A DNA stretch of 64,000 nucleotides from Aulosira sp. ZfuVER01. GTDB taxonomy: Bacteria > Cyanobacteriota > Cyanobacteriia > Cyanobacteriales > Nostocaceae. Positions within the stretch are counted from its first letter, which is position 1, and each line of letters begins with the position of its first letter. Of this stretch, positions 400-24,896 are shown one piece after another. Both the position numbers and the translations under genes were made by a program. The notes beneath the pieces are model-generated. The model was not told the DNA's origin and did not search any database. It worked only from the letters and a program-made list of their open reading frames with translations. The DNA lies in assembly GCA_034530615.2 (NCBI GenBank), contig JAVRCV020000052.1, forward strand, positions 128,001 to 192,000, given 5' to 3'.

Positions 400-732
400 T
401 CAATCCAACCTACTCATCTGCTCATTAATGGAGTTCAAAGGCTCATTAACGGAGTAAAAAGCCTCATTAACGGAGCAAAAAGCCTCGTTCACGGAGCTAA
501 AAGCCTCATTAACGGAGCTAAAAGCCTCATTCACGGAGTAAAAAGCCTCGTTCACGGAGTAAAAAGCCTCATTAATGGAGCTAAAAGCTTCATTAACGGA
601 GTAAAAAGCCTCATTAACGGAGCTAAAAGCCTCGTTCACGGAGTAAAAAGCCTCATTAATGGAGCTAAAAGCCTCGTTCACGGAGTAAAAAGCCTCATTA
701 ATGGAGCTAAAAGCCTCATTAACGAATATCAA
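400..732 (-). CDS. Possible heptad-repeat peptide (V/I)NEAF(S/Y/C)S x15; coding status uncertain
   Basis: Open frame through the repeat, but only a TTG start with no clear RBS; the + strand frame is also open. Confidence 0.3.
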   Translation of the reverse strand: MIFVNEAFSSINEAFYSVNEAFSSINEAFYSVNEAFSSVNEAFYSVNEAFSSINEAFYSVNEAFYSVNEAFSSVNEAFSSVNEAFCSVNEAFYSVNEPLNSINEQMSRLD

Positions 733-911: not shown

Positions 912-1367
912 ATGGAACCAATAACCATCGGTGCGATCGCTCTTTTAACTTTAATCGGCAATAAGGTCATCGATTGGTCAACAGAAAAGGCTTTGGATGC
1001 TGGTTTAGACAAAGCCAAGCAAGTTCTTAAAGCTAAATCACCTGAAACAGCCGCCGCTTTAGAAACCGCAGCCGCACAAGCAGCCTTACCACCAGGAGAA
1101 CGAGAATATATTGGTGAAGCTGTGTTGGTAGAAGAGGTAAAAAAAGCAGCAGAAGCAGACTCGGAAATTAAGGAAGCTGTCGAAGCATTAGGAAATCAAG
1201 CCAGTACTGCTGCACAAGCTAACCCAGAACTGGCAAAGGCTATTGCAGAGTTAACCGCTGCTATTAAAGCGCAAAGTCCGACAACGGTAGAAAACTGGCA
1301 AGGTATAAATATCAAAGGTGGCGAGAATAGTATCAGTAATCCCACATTCAACTTTGGCAGCAAATGA
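912..1367 (+). CDS. Small helical protein with a hydrophobic N-terminal helix and a C-terminal putative amyloid signalling motif (Bell/HeLo-like effector candidate)
   Basis: ATG start; N-terminus MEPITIGAIALLTLIG; Ala/Glu/Lys-rich helical body; C-terminus ENWQGINIKGGENSISNPTFNFGSK recurs at the start of the next gene; ATGA overlap with it. Confidence 0.75.
   Translation: MEPITIGAIALLTLIGNKVIDWSTEKALDAGLDKAKQVLKAKSPETAAALETAAAQAALPPGEREYIGEAVLVEEVKKAAEADSEIKEAVEALGNQASTAAQANPELAKAIAELTAAIKAQSPTTVENWQGINIKGGENSISNPTFNFGSK
933..940. repeat. HIP1 octamer GCGATCGC (one example; recurs throughout the window, e.g. 4823-4830)
   Basis: Palindromic octamer seen many times in core genes; an established cyanobacterial genome signature. 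Confidence 0.9.
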
Positions 1368-4300
1368 CCAACGAGAATTGGCAAGGGATAAACATTAAGG
1401 GTGGCGAGACTAACATCAACAACCCAATCATCAATTTTGGGTCATCACAACAGACTTCTCCACCAAATATCCCCAACAATTTAATTTACAAAGGCGCGGT
1501 CGAGTTTGTTGGGCGAGAAAATGAACTTACCGATATCCATCAGAAATTGCAGCAGTCGGCTAACGTAGCAATTTCGGCGGTAGCTGGGATGGGTGGTATC
1601 GGCAAAACAGAACTAGCAACCCAGTACGCATTAAGACATGAAGCTGATTATCCTGGCGGTATCTGCTGGCTAAATGCAAGAGAATCAGAATTAGCAGCTA
1701 GCATTGTGCAATTTTATCTGTTGTACATTGGTCAAGAAATCCCAAAAGAATTGGGGGGAAAACTGCTGAACCTCCAAGAACAAGTACGGTGGTGTTGGCA
1801 GCATTGGCAACCATCTGAGGGTTTGGTGTTGGTAGTATTAGATGATGTCACTAATTTAGAGAATCTGCGAGAATTACAACCAACAACCAACCGCTTCCGG
1901 GTACTCATCACCACCCGCTTACGCAATCTCAACCGCAATTTTGTCAAGGAAATTTCCTTAGATGTACTCCCGGAAATCAAAGCTTTAGAACTGCTAACAG
2001 CTTTTGTAGGTGAAAAGCGAATACAACGGGAAGAAACAACAGCTAAACAATTGTGTCAATGGCTGGGATATTTACCCTTGGGGTTGGAATTAGTCGGACA
2101 GTATTTAGCTGAAGATCCAGATTTATCCTTAGCAGAAATGTTGGAACGGCTGAAAGTGCAACGCATAGAGGATGAAGCACTAGAACGGAGACAGCCAACC
2201 CTGAGTGCAGCACAGCTGGGAGTGAAAGCCGCCTTTGAATTAAGCTGGCGAGAACTGGATGAAAAAACTCAGCTTGTAGGTGCGTTGTTGAGTTTATTTG
2301 CTCCTGATGTTATACCTTGGCAATTGGCAGAGGCTACCAGTGAGTTGCTGAATTGGGCAAAGGCAGATGTAACGGAAGCGAGAAAGCAACTCTACAAACG
2401 CCATCTCATTCAAAGATTAGAAGATACAAACGCTTGTTATCAAATTCATCCATTAATTCGACAATTTCTCCAAGGAAAATTTGGACAAATTCCTCTCATT
2501 ACTGGCAAGGAAGAGTTAGGAATGGAATTCAAACAAGCTTTTGCAACTGCGATGGTAGCAAAGGCAAAAGAAATTCCTAAAACTCCCACCCGTGAATTTA
2601 TTGAGTCAATACAAGGTACTATTCCCCATGTCCAAGAAGTTGCCCAGAACTTAATTCATGCCGTCAAGGATGAAGATTTAACTTGGGTATTTGTTGGCTT
2701 GGGTAATTTTTATGAAGGACAGGGTTTGTATGCGTTAGCAGAACCTTGGCGTATACAATGTTTATCAACAGTCAAAACTCGTTTGGGAGAAGAACATCCC
2801 GAAGTTGCTACCAGCCTCAACAACTTGGCTAATCTCTACGAATCCCAAGGAAATTACACCGCAGCCGAACCCTTGTTTCAGCAAGCTTTGGCAATGAGAA
2901 AACGCCTGCTGGGAGAAGAACATCCCAACATTGCCCAAAGCCTCAACAACTTGGCTAATGTCTACGAATCCCAAGGAAATTACACTGTAGCTAAACCCTT
3001 GTATCAGCAAGCTTTGGCAATGTATAAACGCCTGCTGGGAGATGAACATCCCCACGTCGCCACCAGCCTCAGCAACTTGGCTAATGTCTACTATTTCCAA
3101 GGAAATTATACTGTAGCTAAACCCTTGTATCAGCAAGCTTTGGCAATGAGAAAACGCCTGCTGGGAGATCAACATCCCGACATCGCCACCAGCCTCAGCA
3201 ACTTGGCTAATCTCTACTATTCCCAAGGAAGGTACTCCGAAGCCGAACCTTTGCATCAGCAAGCTTTGGCAATGAGAAAACGCCTGCTGGGAGATCAACA
3301 TCCCGACACCGCTACAAGCCTTATCGACTTGGCTGATCTCTACTCTTCCCAAGGAAATTACACCGCAGCCGAACCCTTGTATCAGCAAGCTTTGGCAATG
3401 CATAAACATCTGCTGGGAGATGAACATCCCCACGTCGCCATTAGCCTCAACAGCTTGGCTAATCTCTACTCTTCCCAAGGAAATTACACCGCAGCCGAAC
3501 CCTTGTATCAGCAAGCTTTGGCAATGCATAAACATCTGCTGGGAGATGAACATCCCCGAGTCGCCACCAGCCTCAACAACTTGGCTAATCTCTACTATTC
3601 CCAAGGAAGGTATGCCGATGCCGAACCCTTATATCAGCAAGCTTTGGCAATGAGAAAACGGCTGCTGGGAAATGAACATCCCCGAGTCGCCACCAGCCTC
3701 AACAACTTGGCTAATCTCTACAAATCCCAAGGAAATTACACCGCAGCTGAACCTTTGTATCTGCAAGCTTTGGCAATGAGTAAACGCCTGCTGGGAGATG
3801 AACATCCCGATGTTGCCGCCAGCCTCAACAACTTGGCTTTACTCTACTCTTCCCAAGGAAATTACACCGCAGCCGAACCCTTGTATCAGCAAGCTTTGGC
3901 AATGCATAAACATCTGCTGGGAGATGAACATCCCCACGTCGCCATCAGCCTTAATAACTTGGCTTTACTCTACTCTTCCCAAGGAAATTACACCGCAGCT
4001 GAACCTTTGTATCTGCAAGCTTTGGCAATGAGTAAACGCCTGCTGGGAGATGAACATCCCGACATCGCCACCAGCCTTAACAACTTGGCTTATCTCTACT
4101 CTTCCCAAGGAAATTACACCGCAGCTGAACCTTTGTATCTGCAAGCTTTGGCAATGAGTAAACGCCTGCTGGGAGATGAACATCCCGATGTTGCCGCCAG
4201 CCTCAACAACTTGGCTTTACTCTACTCTTCCCAAGGAAATTACACCGCAGCCGAACCCTTGTATCAGCAAGCTTTGGCAATGCATAAACATCTGCTGGGA

Positions 4301-4492
4301 GATGAACATCCCCACGTCGCCATCAGCCTCAACGACTTGGCTTTACTCTACTATTCCCAAGGAAATTACGCCGCCGCCGCACCCTTGTATCTGCAAGCTT
4401 TGGCAATTTTTGAGCAAAAATTAGGTGTCGATCATCCTCGTACAGTTAAGTGTCGTCAAAATCTTGAACTTCTTCATGCTGCTAACTCTTAA
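1364..4492 (+). CDS. NLR-like STAND protein: N-terminal shared motif + NB-ARC + 13 TPR repeats of 42 aa
   Basis: FVGRE, Walker A GMGGIGKT, Walker B LVLVVLDDV, LITTR, GYLPLGL, MHD-equivalent YQIHPLIR; kinesin-light-chain-type TPRs (HPxxAxSLNNLAxLYxSQGxY). Confidence 0.93.
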   Translation: MTNENWQGINIKGGETNINNPIINFGSSQQTSPPNIPNNLIYKGAVEFVGRENELTDIHQKLQQSANVAISAVAGMGGIGKTELATQYALRHEADYPGGICWLNARESELAASIVQFYLLYIGQEIPKELGGKLLNLQEQVRWCWQHWQPSEGLVLVVLDDVTNLENLRELQPTTNRFRVLITTRLRNLNRNFVKEISLDVLPEIKALELLTAFVGEKRIQREETTAKQLCQWLGYLPLGLELVGQYLAEDPDLSLAEMLERLKVQRIEDEALERRQPTLSAAQLGVKAAFELSWRELDEKTQLVGALLSLFAPDVIPWQLAEATSELLNWAKADVTEARKQLYKRHLIQRLEDTNACYQIHPLIRQFLQGKFGQIPLITGKEELGMEFKQAFATAMVAKAKEIPKTPTREFIESIQGTIPHVQEVAQNLIHAVKDEDLTWVFVGLGNFYEGQGLYALAEPWRIQCLSTVKTRLGEEHPEVATSLNNLANLYESQGNYTAAEPLFQQALAMRKRLLGEEHPNIAQSLNNLANVYESQGNYTVAKPLYQQALAMYKRLLGDEHPHVATSLSNLANVYYFQGNYTVAKPLYQQALAMRKRLLGDQHPDIATSLSNLANLYYSQGRYSEAEPLHQQALAMRKRLLGDQHPDTATSLIDLADLYSSQGNYTAAEPLYQQALAMHKHLLGDEHPHVAISLNSLANLYSSQGNYTAAEPLYQQALAMHKHLLGDEHPRVATSLNNLANLYYSQGRYADAEPLYQQALAMRKRLLGNEHPRVATSLNNLANLYKSQGNYTAAEPLYLQALAMSKRLLGDEHPDVAASLNNLALLYSSQGNYTAAEPLYQQALAMHKHLLGDEHPHVAISLNNLALLYSSQGNYTAAEPLYLQALAMSKRLLGDEHPDIATSLNNLAYLYSSQGNYTAAEPLYLQALAMSKRLLGDEHPDVAASLNNLALLYSSQGNYTAAEPLYQQALAMHKHLLGDEHPHVAISLNDLALLYYSQGNYAAAAPLYLQALAIFEQKLGVDHPRTVKCRQNLELLHAANS
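2789..4426 (+). repeat. 13 x 126-bp tandem repeats encoding the TPR array
   Basis: Exact 126-nt periodicity; units 9 (from 3797) and 12 (from 4175) read identically at nucleotide level. Confidence 0.95.
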
Positions 4493-20594: not shown

Positions 20595-22178
20595 CTAAAC
20601 TGAGGGATTTAATTTTTTCTCCCACAACCACCCCAATACACCTAAAGCTAATAACAAAGGTGTCAACCAATCACCCCAACGCACATATAAAGTTTGAGTT
20701 TGACGTTGATAAATTGTTTCGGCATAAGTTTCGTAGGTATTATATCTAGATATCCACAAGGTTCTACCATGAGGGTTGATAAACGCTGAATATCCGGTAT
20801 TAGTCGCCCGCACTGACCATCTATCAGTTTCAATTGCCCGCATGATATCCTGTGCATGGTGCTGGAAGGGCATGGCAGCAGTGTAATGTGCATCGTTGGA
20901 GGAACTGAGGATAAATTTCCCACCCGCCGCAGCTTGACGACGAAATTGCGAAGAAAAGGCTGAGTCGTAACAAATACCAACAATTACACGCCCAAAAGGG
21001 GTATTAAATAGTTGATTGGGCGAACCAGGAACTTGATGTTCATCCAGAGGTGACAGGCGTTGAATGATCTGTCCTAAAATCGCCTCGAAAGGGATATATT
21101 CACCTAATGGTACTAGTTTGGTTTTGTCGTAGCGGCTAAAAGCTTCTCCTTTACTAGTATAGGTAAACAAGCTATTGGTGTAACTGCGTCCTCTTTCTCC
21201 AAAAGCACCAATCCAAGCAACTACGCCTTTTTCCTTCACTGCTGAGATGATGGGAGTTGTGCTTAAGTCACGTTGGAAAAAAGGTAAGGCTCCTTCTGGG
21301 GTGAGGACTGCATCTACACCTCGATCTGCTAAAGTTAAATATCCGTTGGTGTAGCCTGCGATCGCCCGTCGCAATCCTTCTGGTTTTAGTTTAATAATGT
21401 TGGGAATGTTACCTTGAACAATTCCTATTTTTAAGGCTTGTTCTGGAGTTTGGCTGAGGGGAACACTGTAGAAGCTAAAACCGATGAGGTGTAGGGTGAT
21501 GAATAGTAATGTTGCAAGTGCAAAGTATTTATTAACGAACCGCTGAGGCGCAGAGGAACCAGAGGAGGAGATTTTACGGTTAATCCAGGCTTCGGCAATA
21601 AAGCCATTTACGGCGACAATTGCGGCTGTAATAGCGCTTGGCCCGGCGAGTTGACCGAGGTGTAAAATTACTAAATTCTGCGGACTTTGGGTGTATGAAA
21701 GAGAACTCCACCATAAAGCGCCAGCACTCCAAATTCCTTCTAATAAGCACCAGATAGCTGTGCCGATAAGTACCCGCAATACAGGTTTTGAGACAGCTAA
21801 ACGCACCATCAAAGCTGCCCAAGCAACGACAATGGCTGCACCCCAAAGGGTAACGAATGTCAAACAGAAGATGGTAATTGCCAAACTCGCCAGCCAAGGA
21901 ACACCCAACCAATCCATTGGATGGATGCCGGTAATCCAGAATAAAGCTAATCCGTGATAACCAATACCCCAAAATAAAGGTAAAAAGAAGAATTTTCGCC
22001 TTTTACCTTCTAAGTTTGTACTTTTTTGAACAACTAACACCCAGAGAGGGACGAGGGCAATCCAAGCTAGAAACCATGCGCCTACAGGGGCTACAGTTAG
22101 CCCCATTAATACCCCACTAATGAAGGATAAAATGTAAAGGCTAAAGGATGAAAATAGCTTTTTTGTTTGATACTTCAT
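20595..22178 (-). CDS. lnt: Apolipoprotein N-acyltransferase
   Basis: Multi-TM N-terminus, IVQGNIP, TPEGA, YDKTKLVPLGEYIP, GICYDSAF, RATNTGYS. Confidence 0.92.
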   Translation of the reverse strand: MKYQTKKLFSSFSLYILSFISGVLMGLTVAPVGAWFLAWIALVPLWVLVVQKSTNLEGKRRKFFFLPLFWGIGYHGLALFWITGIHPMDWLGVPWLASLAITIFCLTFVTLWGAAIVVAWAALMVRLAVSKPVLRVLIGTAIWCLLEGIWSAGALWWSSLSYTQSPQNLVILHLGQLAGPSAITAAIVAVNGFIAEAWINRKISSSGSSAPQRFVNKYFALATLLFITLHLIGFSFYSVPLSQTPEQALKIGIVQGNIPNIIKLKPEGLRRAIAGYTNGYLTLADRGVDAVLTPEGALPFFQRDLSTTPIISAVKEKGVVAWIGAFGERGRSYTNSLFTYTSKGEAFSRYDKTKLVPLGEYIPFEAILGQIIQRLSPLDEHQVPGSPNQLFNTPFGRVIVGICYDSAFSSQFRRQAAAGGKFILSSSNDAHYTAAMPFQHHAQDIMRAIETDRWSVRATNTGYSAFINPHGRTLWISRYNTYETYAETIYQRQTQTLYVRWGDWLTPLLLALGVLGWLWEKKLNPSV

Positions 22179-22212
22179 AAGATTTCTTGCAAAAATCCGA
22201 ATAAGAATAAAA

Positions 22213-22256
22213 AACCACAGATGAACACCGATTAACACCGATATTTATCTGTGGTT
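22213..22256. repeat. Hairpin-bounded short tandem repeat between gyrA and lnt
   Basis: AACCACAGAT...ATCTGTGGTT inverted ends around 10-nt AACACCGAT(T/A) units. Confidence 0.55.
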
Positions 22257-22295
22257 CGATATCCAAAAAATCGACTTATGCAAAAGGTCTATACT

Positions 22296-24896
22296 TCATT
22301 CTGCCTCTTCTAAAAGACCTGTATCACCCGTATCAGGAGGAACTATGGCTACTCCGGTGATGGCATCATCTTCGTCTAAGCGCTGAACTCTCACGCCTGT
22401 TGCCGATCGCGATTGTACGGAAATTGCATTCACCGCTTGGCGTATAATAATACCGCGATTTGTTACCATCATGATTTCGTCGTCGCTGTTGACAATCTGC
22501 AAGGTGGCTAATTTGTCTTTGGTTTTGCGGTTTTTGAATTTGGTTGCCATCAAACCCTGACCGGCACGATTTTGCAACCGGAATTGGGCAACTGGGACGC
22601 GCTTGCCATATCCACCCATCGTAATTACCAACACCCAAGGGCCAGTACTACCAATAGCTGCTACTTCTGTGGATTCTTCATTTTCGATATCTTCGGTTTC
22701 GAGGATCTCTTCAATATCGGCCTCGGTTTCGGTATCTGTACTCAAGGTGTCGAGAATGGCGGCGGGAAGGATATCCATCCCGACTAATTCATCACCGGGC
22801 TTAAGTTTCATGGATTTTACACCACGAGTTGCCCTACCTAGAGGACGCAATTGTTCGTGGTTACAGCGAAAATGAATTGCCATCCCATGACGAGAACCTA
22901 CAATTACACTGTCTTCTACCCTAGCGCGTCGTACCCAGCGTAATTGGTCGCCTTCTTCTAAGGAAATTGCTATTAAGCCGTTGGCGCGAATGTTACTAAA
23001 TGCTGTCAAATCAGTTTTCTTGATATTGCCACCTTTGGTGAGCATCACCAGATATTCTTCACTGGTAAACTCATCAACTGGAACAATGGAAGTAATTTTT
23101 TCTTCCTTGGGAATGGGCAACATTTGCACAATTGGTGTACCGCGACTGGTACGGGAACCCACGGGAATTTGATAAGCTTTCAGGCAGTAGACTACACCGC
23201 GATCGCTAAAAAATAAAACACTGTCGTGATCGCAGCAAGTCAAGAAATGTTCAATGGTGTCATCATCTTTGACCTTAGCCCCGGCTTTGCCTCTGGTAGC
23301 GCGGCTTTGAGCTTCAAAGGTGTTGACTGGCATCCGTTTGATATAACCTTGCTCTGTTAGCAAAATGATTGCTTTTTCATTTGCTATCAGGTCAAGATCG
23401 TCTAATTCTCCTTCTGCATGGGTAATTACAGTGCGTCGGGGTGTGGCGAAGCTAGTTTTGATTTGCGCAACTTCGTCTTCAATGATTGCCAGCACTCTTT
23501 CCCGCCGTGCCAAAATATCTTGCAAGTCGGCAATTTGTGTTTGTAAATCTTCGTGTTCTTGGCGAATTTTATCTGCTTCTAGGGCTGTTAAGCGCCGCAG
23601 TTGCATCTGTAAAATTGCATCTGCTTGGACTTCCGAAAGCCCGTATGTGGTAATTAGTTCACCTTTGGCTGTGGGTGCATCGGAAGCATGGCGAATTAAG
23701 TTAATGATTGCATCTAAATGCGATAGAGCAATTAACAATCCTTGTAAGATATGGTCACGGTCTTCCGCTTTCCGCAGTTCATAGCGTGTGCGTCTGTTAA
23801 TCGATTCAATACGGAAATCTAAGAAGACTTCTAAGAACTGCTTGATGGTGAGGGTTTGAGGTTCACCATTCACCAACGCCAGCATATTTGCCCCAAAGTT
23901 GGCTTGCAGTGGGGTTTGCTTGTAGAGGTTATTCAGTACTACCCTAGGATAGGCATCGCGCTTGAGTTCGATGACAATTCGCATCCCATCGCGATCGCTT
24001 TCATCCCGAATATCTGCAATTCCCTCGATGCGTTTATCATTCACCAACTCGGCAATTTTTTCAATTAATGCGGCTTTGTTGGTTTGATAGGGCAATTCGG
24101 TGATGATAATTGCTTCTCTTTCTGGTCTTCCTCTTTGTTCAATGGTTTCGATGTTAGCCACGCCGCGCATGGTAATCGAACCGCGCCCGGTGGTGTAAGC
24201 TTCTTTAATTGCAGCCGTTCCCAAAACCTGGGCCCCAGTGGGAAAATCTGGGCCGTGGATATACTGCATTAACTGGAGATTGGTGATTTCTGGATTGTGA
24301 ATCAATGCCACTAATCCATCAATCAATTCGCCTAAATTGTGCGGCGGGATGTTTGTTGCCATCCCCACAGCAATCCCAGAGGAACCATTCAGCAACAGCT
24401 GGGGAATCCGTGATGGTAGAACTGTTGGTTCTTGTTGGGAACCGTCGAAGTTATCAATAAAATCTACGGTTTCCGATTCGATGTCGTGGAGTAAGGCTAG
24501 GCTAGTTAAGGCTTGCAAGCGACATTCTGTGTACCGCATTGCCGCTGGCGGATCGTTGTCTACTGAACCGAAGTTACCATGCCCGTTGATTAAGGGCGAT
24601 CGCATGGAAAAATCCTGCGCCATCCGCACCAAGGCATCATATACTGCCGTGTCGCCGTGAGGGTGATATTTACCCAAAACTTCCCCCACCACACGGGCGC
24701 ATTTACGGAATGGGCGATCGTGCGTCAAACCTAGCTCGTGCATTGCGTAGAGGATGCGACGATGCACAGGTTTCAGACCATCCCTGGCATCTGGCAGCGC
24801 CCGACCCACAATCACACTCATGGCGTATTCCAGATAAGACCGGGACATTTCGTTCCGCAGATCTGTCGGGATAATCCTCTCCTGTGAGGTTGTCAT
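22296..24896 (-). CDS. gyrA: DNA gyrase subunit A
   Basis: [31 protein letters not shown] active-site Tyr, GyrA-box-like QSRATRGK, beta-pinwheel CTD. Confidence 0.96.

What the first reader, a model, noticed from the sequence alone, without database searches (positions are those of the whole stretch)
912..4492. Candidate amyloid-signalling immune pair: a small effector and an NLR share a terminal N/G/I-rich motif
Seen: the 151-aa protein ends ENWQGINIKGGENSISNPTFNFGS (from 1290) and the NB-ARC/TPR protein begins ENWQGINIKGGETNINNPIINFGS (from 1373), 19 of 24 residues identical. In the 12 consecutive identical residues, 6 codons differ synonymously (GAA/GAG, AAC/AAT, GGT/GGG, AAT/AAC, ATC/ATT, AAA/AAG), so the match is kept by selection on the peptide and is not a recent DNA duplication. 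The genes overlap by ATGA, and the NLR has no other N-terminal effector domain. Established: fungal NWD2/HET-S pairs and bacterial Bell-BASS/NLR pairs have this layout; the activated NLR templates an amyloid fold onto the partner, whose N-terminal helical domain attacks the membrane. Inference: this is a cyanobacterial programmed-death or anti-phage switch, with MEPITIGAIALLTLIG as the membrane-inserting helix. I cannot tell whether this motif belongs to a catalogued BASS family or is new.
Basis: partly seen in the sequence, partly recalled or inferred. Interest (0 to 1): 0.93.

Follow-up and report, generated by a model that had tools for sequence, protein, structure and literature searches.

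The report
Known amyloid-motif effector/NLR gene pair
A small helical protein and the NLR-type sensor encoded next to it share a short peptide of an already catalogued cyanobacterial amyloid-signalling family (BASS7), so the pair is an ordinary member of a known cell-death or defence module.

Summary
The 151-aa protein (912-1367) ends with a 24-residue motif, and the NB-ARC/TPR protein (1364-4492) begins with it. 19 of 24 residues are identical, 11 of those 19 use different codons, and the genes overlap by ATGA.

The motif is not new. The data supplement of Dyrka's grammar paper lists it as class C12, which its README maps to BASS7. Tails identical to those of two orthologous loci are in that set. 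Among 28 related Nostocales loci, 18 are two-gene pairs whose motifs co-vary.

The best reading is a Bell-type effector/NLR amyloid-signalling pair. Amyloid formation, toxicity and any anti-phage role remain untested for BASS7.

By-product, outside the window: a paralogue in the same genome and about 95 other cyanobacterial loci have no motif copy on the NLR. The effector ORF ends in an in-frame TGA (rarely TAG). Exactly 8 nt later comes a covarying 5-bp hairpin, and the NLR continues in frame without a start codon. This looks like programmed stop-codon readthrough. My literature searches found no description of it.

The parts
912..1367 (+). Effector gene, 151 aa (Bell-like helical domain plus BASS7 tail)
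   Evidence: ORF. There are 36 homologues of 108-158 aa in Nostocaceae. No Pfam, NCBIfam or PADLOC family matches.
912..962 (+). N-terminal hydrophobic helix MEPITIGAIALLTLIGN, with an acidic residue at position 2 (the 'MEPIS'-type region)
   Evidence: Sequence. Helix at residues 3-14 or 6-16 in the two AF2 models. M1, P3, T5, G7, A8 and I9 are nearly invariant in alignment A1. The feature is described for Bell domains in the Dyrka preprint and the Ibarlosa preprint.
912..1277 (+). All-helical globular domain, residues 1-122 (six predicted helices)
   Evidence: AF2 on a 146-row alignment gives mean pLDDT 75.9 and pTM 0.69, with helices 3-14, 26-42, 44-57, 69-82, 84-103 and 105-120.
1290..1361 (+). 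Effector-side BASS7 motif ENWQGINIKGGENSISNPTFNFGS
   Evidence: Residues 123-151 have pLDDT below 50 in the full-length model. Same class as C12 = BASS7 in the supplement of PMC8086366.
1364..1367 (+). ATGA overlap of the effector stop and the NLR start
1364..4492 (+). NLR-type gene, 1042 aa: BASS7 motif, linker, NB-ARC, TPR array
1373..1444 (+). NLR-side BASS7 motif ENWQGINIKGGETNINNPIINFGS
1517..2170 (+). NB-ARC NTPase domain (residues 52-269). Walker A GMGGIGKT lies at residues 75-82 (nt 1586-1609).
   Evidence: Pfam PF00931, E = 2.1e-15. Walker A read from the translation.
2784..4407 (+). TPR sensor array, also a DNA tandem repeat (period 126 nt, 12.9 copies, 88% matches)
   Evidence: TRF. 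Pfam TPR_12 and TPR_10, 14 stretches each.

Best explanation
The two genes form a Bell-type effector/NLR pair of the BASS7 family. Shown by sequence: a small all-helical protein with a hydrophobic N-terminal helix carries a 24-residue N/G/I-rich tail. The same tail opens the NB-ARC/TPR protein whose gene overlaps it by ATGA. Inferred from tested relatives (BASS1, BASS3, BASS11, fungal HET-S/NWD2): the TPR array senses a cue, and the NB-ARC domain oligomerises. That brings the N-terminal motifs together into a cross-beta nucleus. The nucleus templates the same fold onto the tails of many effector molecules. The effector's helical domain then releases its N-terminal helix and damages the membrane, killing the cell. 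The biological role is unknown; abortive infection or another regulated death in the filament are the candidates.
For: Motif identity is kept at the peptide level, not the DNA level: 19/24 aa but 51/72 nt, and 11 of 19 identical residues use different codons. BLASTP gives E = 8e-12.

The motif class is catalogued. ENW[QK]GINIKGG... sequences are class C12 in the supplement of PMC8086366, and its README maps C12 to BASS7. C12_s015 equals the last 36 residues of the L014 effector. C12_s011 equals the first 30 residues of the L009 NLR. L009's effector is 87% identical to the window's.

Of 28 related loci, 18 are two-gene pairs. In 18 pairs (the window plus 17), mean within-pair identity is 16.8/24 against 14.0/24 between pairs. 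None of 20,000 permutations reached the observed sum, also when only 13 distinct effector motifs were kept. Subfamilies change together: ITTGG...STFNFGS with ITQGG...STFNFGS; KPTIKNNT with KPTIKDNT; NFKNANPT with NSKDSNVT or NFKDSSPT.

The same helical domain carries other BASS classes in relatives, for example BASS5-type tails, so the tail is a swappable module. The model shows a helical bundle with a disordered tail. The Dyrka preprint (Results) describes this layout, the frequent gene overlaps, and BASS7-10 as specific to cyanobacteria.
Against: There is no experimental datum for BASS7. The preprint tested BASS1 and BASS3 only.

Fold searches with the effector model found nothing significant: Foldseek best E = 1.3 and 3.2, VIA-align best Z = 4.9. 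Likeness to HeLo, MLKL or Babybell is therefore not shown by structure.

The own partner is the best or joint-best match for only 8 of 18 effectors. Co-variation therefore shows at subfamily level, not for every pair, and related loci inflate the permutation result.

The neighbours are housekeeping genes (Usp, TldD/PmbA, CoaE), and PADLOC gives only TPR-type hits. Nothing in the context points to phage defence.
Confidence: 0.78

Rival explanations
1. The shared motif is a homotypic docking tag that joins sensor and effector by an ordinary, non-amyloid contact such as beta-strand pairing. There is no templated, self-propagating fold.
For: Nothing computed here separates amyloid from non-amyloid pairing. 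The motif is short, and both AF2 models leave it disordered or omit it. BASS7 itself is untested in the texts I read.
Against: Composition (N, G, I, Q), length (about 25 residues) and position match the ten BASS families. The tested members of those families formed fibrils and prion-like aggregates (abstract and Results of the Dyrka preprint).
Confidence: 0.12
2. The pair works as described, but its role is developmental or social cell death or self/non-self recognition within filaments, not defence against phage.
For: The Dyrka preprint links Bell domains and BASS pairs to multicellular bacteria. The locus sits among housekeeping genes, not in a defence island.
Against: The one bacterial system tested in vivo, Bab/Agp of E. 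coli, is an abortive-infection system (abstract of the Ibarlosa preprint).
Confidence: 0.3
3. The similarity is left over from a recent local duplication or gene conversion and has no function.
For: The two copies lie 83 nt apart.
Against: Only 71% of the nucleotides are identical against 79% of the residues, and 11 of 19 conserved residues use different codons. The arrangement is kept in 18 of 28 related loci from several genera.
Confidence: 0.02

Closest known systems
BASS7 Bell-domain/NLR gene pairs of cyanobacteria (Dyrka et al., bioRxiv 10.1101/2020.01.06.895854; data set in PMC8086366)
   Same: Same motif class, and orthologues' tails are identical to published set members. Same small helical effector, NB-ARC/TPR partner, collinear overlapping genes, and Nostocales hosts.
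   Different: Nothing of substance. This genome's copy may or may not be in their Table S2, which I could not open.
HET-S / NWD2 of Podospora anserina (fungal HRAM motif)
   Same: The effector carries a C-terminal prion-forming motif, an adjacent NLR carries the motif at its N-terminus, and a helical domain attacks the membrane (as summarised).
   Different: HET-S carries two pseudo-repeats of the motif, whereas this effector has one. There is no sequence relation, and the NLR here is NB-ARC/TPR.
Bab/Agp (BASS11) abortive-infection system of E. coli (Ibarlosa et al., bioRxiv 10.1101/2024.11.07.622273)
   Same: Two adjacent genes share an amyloid motif, and the effector has a conserved MEP...-type hydrophobic helix 1.
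   Different: It is a different motif family. The Babybell domain has about 80 residues against about 120 here. No PDB chain was matched by sequence or fold here. Phage defence is shown there and not here.
RHIM / BASS3 / fungal PP motifs
   Same: Short amyloid signalling motifs that link a sensor to a death effector.
   Different: Pfam gave no RHIM hit at E up to 1 on either protein, and BASS7 is a separate class in the published clustering.
Viral programmed readthrough signals (MuLV gag-pol, phage Qbeta A1) and bacterial SECIS elements, as comparisons for the by-product only
   Same: An in-frame stop between two coding parts and a conserved RNA structure a few nucleotides downstream. That MuLV gag and pol share one frame split by a UAG is in the abstract of PMC4178896 (listing). 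The 8-nt spacer plus pseudoknot of MuLV, and Qbeta A1, are recalled, not checked.
   Different: The element sits in chromosomal bacterial immune-type genes. The stem is only 5 bp. G000 has no tRNA-Sec and no SelB, and 4 junctions use TAG, so it is not a SECIS.

Membership tests
Bell/NLR pair with a BASS motif (Dyrka et al. 2020) | The C-terminal motif (about 25 aa) of a small protein recurs at the N-terminus of a neighbouring NB-ARC or NACHT protein | tested here: met
   19/24 identical; BLASTP 20/26, E = 8e-12
Bell/NLR pair with a BASS motif (Dyrka et al. 2020) | Genes collinear and very close or overlapping | tested here: met
   ATGA overlap at 1364-1367. The preprint reports 91.3% of pairs collinear and 42% overlapping.
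Bell/NLR pair with a BASS motif (Dyrka et al. 2020) | Partner has NLR architecture (NB-ARC or NACHT plus TPR or WD repeats) | tested here: met
   NB-ARC E = 2.1e-15; TPR_12 E = 1.3e-247, 14 stretches
Bell/NLR pair with a BASS motif (Dyrka et al. 2020) | Effector N-terminal domain is a Bell domain: about 100 aa, alpha-helical, hydrophobic first helix, acidic residue at position 2 or 3 | tested here: met
   MEPITIGAIALL...; six helices over residues 3-120. Homology to the founding Bell sequence was not tested directly, because I held no Bell profile. Indirect support: the tail of homologue L014 (58% identical to the window's effector) is in the published set built from Bell-protein C-termini.
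BASS7 motif class | Motif matches the published class | tested here: met
   The words NWQGI, NIKGG and NWKGI occur 78, 85 and 20 times in the supplement. All passages shown are under C12 headers, and the README maps C12 to BASS7. I had no published profile HMM, so no score was computed.
BASS families in general | Motif forms amyloid and the NLR-side copy seeds the effector-side copy | not testable with these tools
   Needs ThT, EM or ssNMR and cross-seeding. The preprint tested BASS1 and BASS3 only.
BASS families in general | Paired motifs co-vary among homologous pairs | tested here: met
   Within-pair identity 16.8/24 against 14.0/24 between pairs; 0 of 20,000 permutations reached the observed sum; own partner best or joint-best in 8 of 18. 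Relatedness of the loci inflates the test.
HeLo / Hell / MLKL-4HB / CC superfamily of membrane-targeting helical domains | Structural likeness of the globular domain | tested here: inconclusive
   Foldseek against PDB: no match at E <= 0.001 for either model. VIA-align against 48,161 chains: best Z = 4.9, none >= 5. [quoted passage not shown]
HET-s type (HRAM) effectors | [quoted passage not shown] | tested here: not met
   My motif pattern found one copy in the effector and one in the NLR.
RHIM / BASS3 | Match to the RHIM profile | tested here: not met
   No RHIM family among the Pfam hits at E up to 1
Selenocysteine recoding (by-product junction only) | tRNA-Sec and SelB in the genome; UGA only | tested here: not met
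   ARAGORN finds 74 tRNAs in G000, none Sec or with anticodon UCA. The best SelB-profile hit scores 181 bits against a cut-off of 242 and covers the GTPase part only. 4 of 97 junctions use TAG.
Programmed stop-codon readthrough (by-product junction only) | In-frame stop between two coding parts, conserved downstream RNA structure at a fixed distance, and no independent start for the downstream part | tested here: met
   97 distinct junctions with an 8-nt spacer. Helix 97.6% paired in 100 sequences, with double changes in 4 of 5 pairs. 40 of 60 NB-ARC-type junctions have no ATG, GTG or TTG before the conserved F[VI]GR motif.
Programmed stop-codon readthrough (by-product junction only) | A fusion protein is actually made | not testable with these tools
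   Needs a reporter assay, a western blot or mass spectrometry.

The most novel reading that the evidence does not exclude
The window's two-gene pair is one of two designs of the same system. The other design lies outside the window. It occurs in this genome's paralogue on contig C37 and in about 95 other cyanobacterial loci. In it the NLR has no motif and no start codon of its own. It is made only when ribosomes read through the effector's in-frame TGA or TAG, helped by a conserved hairpin (possibly a pseudoknot) 8 nt downstream. One ORF would then give many free Bell-BASS effectors and a few Bell-BASS-NLR fusions. These carry the identical motif by construction, and their ratio is set by readthrough efficiency.
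Probability: 0.5. Interest if true: 0.85.

Novelty: already known. Interest (0 to 1): 0.3.

Why it matters
The window's pair adds one more BASS7 example and confirms that first-stage reading can spot such pairs from raw sequence. It does not open a new question.

The by-product could matter more. Programmed stop-codon readthrough with a dedicated RNA signal is, to my recollection, rare in bacterial chromosomal genes. Here it would tie sensor and effector of an immune-type system into one translation unit, fix their ratio, and remove the need for two motif copies to co-evolve. It can be tested directly with a reporter.

Tried and rejected
- **Family scans of the effector.** Pfam, NCBIfam and PADLOC gave no family. 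A Pfam scan of all 146 members of alignment A5 gave no consistent family.
- **PDB by sequence.** A profile search with A1 gave nothing below E = 0.23.
- **Fold searches.** Two Foldseek searches and one VIA-align wide search gave no significant match. Weak rows included Bcl-xL and the Rx coiled-coil domain, which I do not count.
- **Fused forms.** The word-index search for longer proteins found none among 7,998 candidates, which is weak evidence. In the exhaustive search, the four long proteins I read among the 150 listed (P0113, P0136, P0164, P0176) are not effector-motif-sense codon-NLR fusions.
- **Rfam.** Four junction loci gave no match at E up to 1.
- **Folding one junction.** The own-genome junction RNA folds to -11.9 kcal/mol with z = 0.22, no more stable than shuffles. 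The case for the hairpin rests on covariation, not on energy.
- **Model R1 on the window.** Best E = 1.9. The homologous linker at 1430-1504 scores 10 bits, so the window pair lacks the element.
- **Sequencing runs.** No RNA holder was listed and no reads were laid.
- **Complex prediction.** Not used, because an amyloid filament is a poor case for it.
- **Earlier notes of this scan.** Five look-ups found other BASS-like pairs elsewhere. They held nothing on this locus or on the stop-hairpin junction.
- **Oversized call.** exceeded the limit of 150 sequences and was resent smaller.
Full report
**1. The observation.** ORF 912-1367 (+) encodes 151 aa ending ...ENWQGINIKGGENSISNPTFNFGSK. ORF 1364-4492 (+) encodes 1042 aa beginning MTNENWQGINIKGGETNINNPIINFGSS. 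The motifs start at 1290 and 1373. 19 of 24 residues are identical. Over the whole motif, 11 of the 19 identical residues use different codons and 51 of 72 nt are identical. BLASTP gives 20/26 identities and E = 8e-12. The genes overlap by ATGA.

**2. The two proteins.** The long protein has NB-ARC at residues 52-269 (E = 2.1e-15) and 14 TPR_12/TPR_10 stretches. Nothing is recognised before residue 52. Its TPR array is also a DNA tandem repeat: period 126 nt, 12.9 copies, 88% matches. The short protein matches no Pfam, NCBIfam or PADLOC family. AF2 on a 146-row alignment gives pLDDT 75.9 and six helices over residues 3-120. In the full-length model the tail, residues 123-151, has pLDDT below 50. 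The N-terminus MEPITIGAIALL... is the most conserved part. It fits the hydrophobic first helix with an acidic residue at position 2 or 3 that Dyrka et al. describe for Bell domains (Results). It also fits the 'MEPIS' region of Ibarlosa et al. (section 8).

**3. The motif is catalogued.** The Dyrka preprint (abstract and Results parts 1-2) defines BASS1-10 and calls BASS7-10 specific to cyanobacteria. Its figures are not held. The data supplement of PMC8086366 lists sequences such as ...IENWQGINIKGGKPIIKNNTLNFGSK under class C12, and its README maps C12 to BASS7. That file was cut when stored. C12_s015 equals the last 36 residues of the effector of locus L014. C12_s011 equals the first 30 residues of the NLR of L009. 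L009's effector is 87% identical to the window's.

**4. Relatives and co-variation.** The effector has 36 homologues among 2,391 scored candidates, all from Nostocaceae-type cyanobacteria. A scan of species genomes gave 28 loci.
- 18 are two-gene pairs with the motif on both sides. Of these, 15 have the same overlap and 3 (L013, L015, L019) have a spacer.
- 1 (L020) is a degenerate orphan.
- 9 have another design, described in paragraph 7.

In 18 pairs (the window plus 17; L019 was found later and left out), within-pair identity averages 16.8/24 against 14.0/24 between pairs. None of 20,000 permutations reached the observed sum, also with one pair for each of the 13 distinct effector motifs. 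The own partner is best or joint-best for 8 of 18 effectors only. Co-variation is therefore clear between subfamilies and not within them, and kinship inflates the test. The same helical domain carries BASS5-type and other tails in relatives, so the tail is modular.

**5. Mechanism.** Shown: the layout, the peptide-level conservation, the co-variation and membership of the class. Inferred from BASS1 and BASS3 (fibrils and prion behaviour), from Bab/Agp (abstract) and from HET-S/NWD2: NLR oligomerisation nucleates a cross-beta fold, which is templated onto effector tails, and the released helix 1 attacks the membrane. BASS7 itself was not tested in the texts I read. No phage link is visible. 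The neighbours are Usp, TldD/PmbA and CoaE, and PADLOC gives TPR hits only.

**6. Fold tests.** Foldseek against PDB with both models and VIA-align against 48,161 chains gave nothing significant: best E = 1.3 and 3.2, best Z = 4.9. A PDB sequence-profile search also found nothing. Structural membership of the HeLo/MLKL/Babybell group is undecided.

**7. By-product: a stop-hairpin junction, outside the window.** G000 has two Bell-like genes: the window's, and one on contig C37 whose tail is also BASS7-like (...ENYKGINIKGGTNTISGNTFNF). On C37 the TGA stop is followed in the same frame by a linker and an NB-ARC/TPR protein of 800 codons. That protein has no motif of its own. Nine of the 28 related loci look the same.

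- *Spread.* An 80-nt query from one junction hit 52 of 401 genomes of the order, and 29 of the 30 fetched loci show the junction. A covariance model built from 37 junctions hit 69 of 151 genomes of the family, with 131 matches. I examined 70 of those matches. All 30 best have TGA in frame. Of 40 weaker ones, 37 have it. The 3 without a stop have a degenerate stem, and two of them are NLRs with their own start and their own N-terminal motif.
- *Tally.* The held loci contain 97 distinct junctions: 93 TGA and 4 TAG. The next base is C in 93. The spacer to the stem is always 8 nt, which my pattern demanded. Of 60 NB-ARC-type junctions, 40 have no in-frame ATG, GTG or TTG before the conserved F[VI]GR motif. 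The 12 codons before that motif give pN/pS 0.63 in frame, against 1.13 and 1.18 in the other two frames (a rough count).
- *RNA structure.* On 100 model matches the 5-bp helix is paired in 97.6% of cells. Four of its 5 pairs show double changes, for example CG 60 / UA 32 and GC 84 / CG 11. A second 3-bp helix, between the loop and a downstream CCC, is paired in 94.8% and has a few double changes. No shuffle of 500 reached the observed score, and slid controls give 10-69% pairing (smaller set). Two caveats apply. The alignments were picked or fitted with the helix in mind, and a single sequence folds no better than shuffles.
- *What it is not.* It is not selenocysteine, because G000 has no tRNA-Sec and no SelB and TAG variants exist. 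It matches no Rfam family. No sense-codon fusions appeared among 562 family representatives, of which 150 were listed and 4 long ones read, nor in a search for longer proteins.
- *No partner in trans.* In one complete genome the effector's 37-residue tail has no second copy.
- *Modules.* Upstream modules are mostly Bell plus diverse BASS tails; two are hydrolase-like. Downstream modules include NB-ARC, other P-loop NTPases and membrane proteins.

My reading is programmed readthrough that makes a Bell-BASS-NLR fusion beside free effector (probability about 0.5). The rivals are termination followed by re-initiation at a non-standard codon (one junction has GTG straight after the stop, and 20 of 60 have a TTG or GTG further on), or a regulatory hairpin of another kind.

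**8. Literature.** Three full-text searches and term look-ups in the Dyrka and Ibarlosa preprints, PMC12261475 and PMC13506858 found no mention of readthrough or an in-frame stop in these systems. The properties of MuLV, Qbeta and the weak UGA-C context are recalled, not checked, apart from the MuLV abstract in the listing.

**9. Verdict.** The finding is real and correctly interpreted, but it belongs to a described family (BASS7), so interest is low. The stop-hairpin junction seen in the paralogue deserves its own follow-up.

Noticed in passing
Outside the window: G000 contig C37, about 22105-24879, minus strand (locus L144 603-3419; also L004): A paralogous Bell-like effector with a BASS7-like tail ends in TGA. 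In the same frame follow a conserved linker and an 800-codon NB-ARC/TPR protein with no motif of its own. A covarying 5-bp hairpin starts 8 nt after the stop. This is a candidate programmed readthrough.
   Followed up: yes
Loci L024-L033, L034-L063, L072-L141 (other cyanobacterial genomes): The same stop + 8 nt + hairpin junction occurs in 97 distinct loci. It joins diverse effector modules (Bell with many BASS classes; two alpha/beta-hydrolase-like, L054 and L056) to diverse downstream modules (NB-ARC, other P-loop NTPases, membrane proteins L134 and L139). Four loci use TAG (L060-L063). 61 of the 131 model matches were not examined.
   Followed up: partly
Window 912-4492 and G000 contig C37: One genome holds two systems with BASS7-type tails. 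By my count, about 13 of 22 residues are shared between the C37 effector tail and the window NLR motif. Cross-seeding between the two systems is conceivable.
   Followed up: no
window 421-724: A tandem repeat of 21 nt, 14.5 copies, 83% matches (88% as a 42-nt unit), lies just upstream of the effector gene. It opens a 110-aa ORF on the minus strand that is probably not a gene.
   Followed up: no
window 2784-4407: The TPR sensor is a highly regular 126-nt DNA repeat (12.9 copies, 88% matches). An array of this kind could change by unequal recombination.
   Followed up: no
L020 4001-4576 (Nostoc sp. NMS7 record): An orthologous effector whose frame runs on past the motif (191 aa) and has no NLR next to it. 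It is probably a decayed orphan copy.
   Followed up: partly
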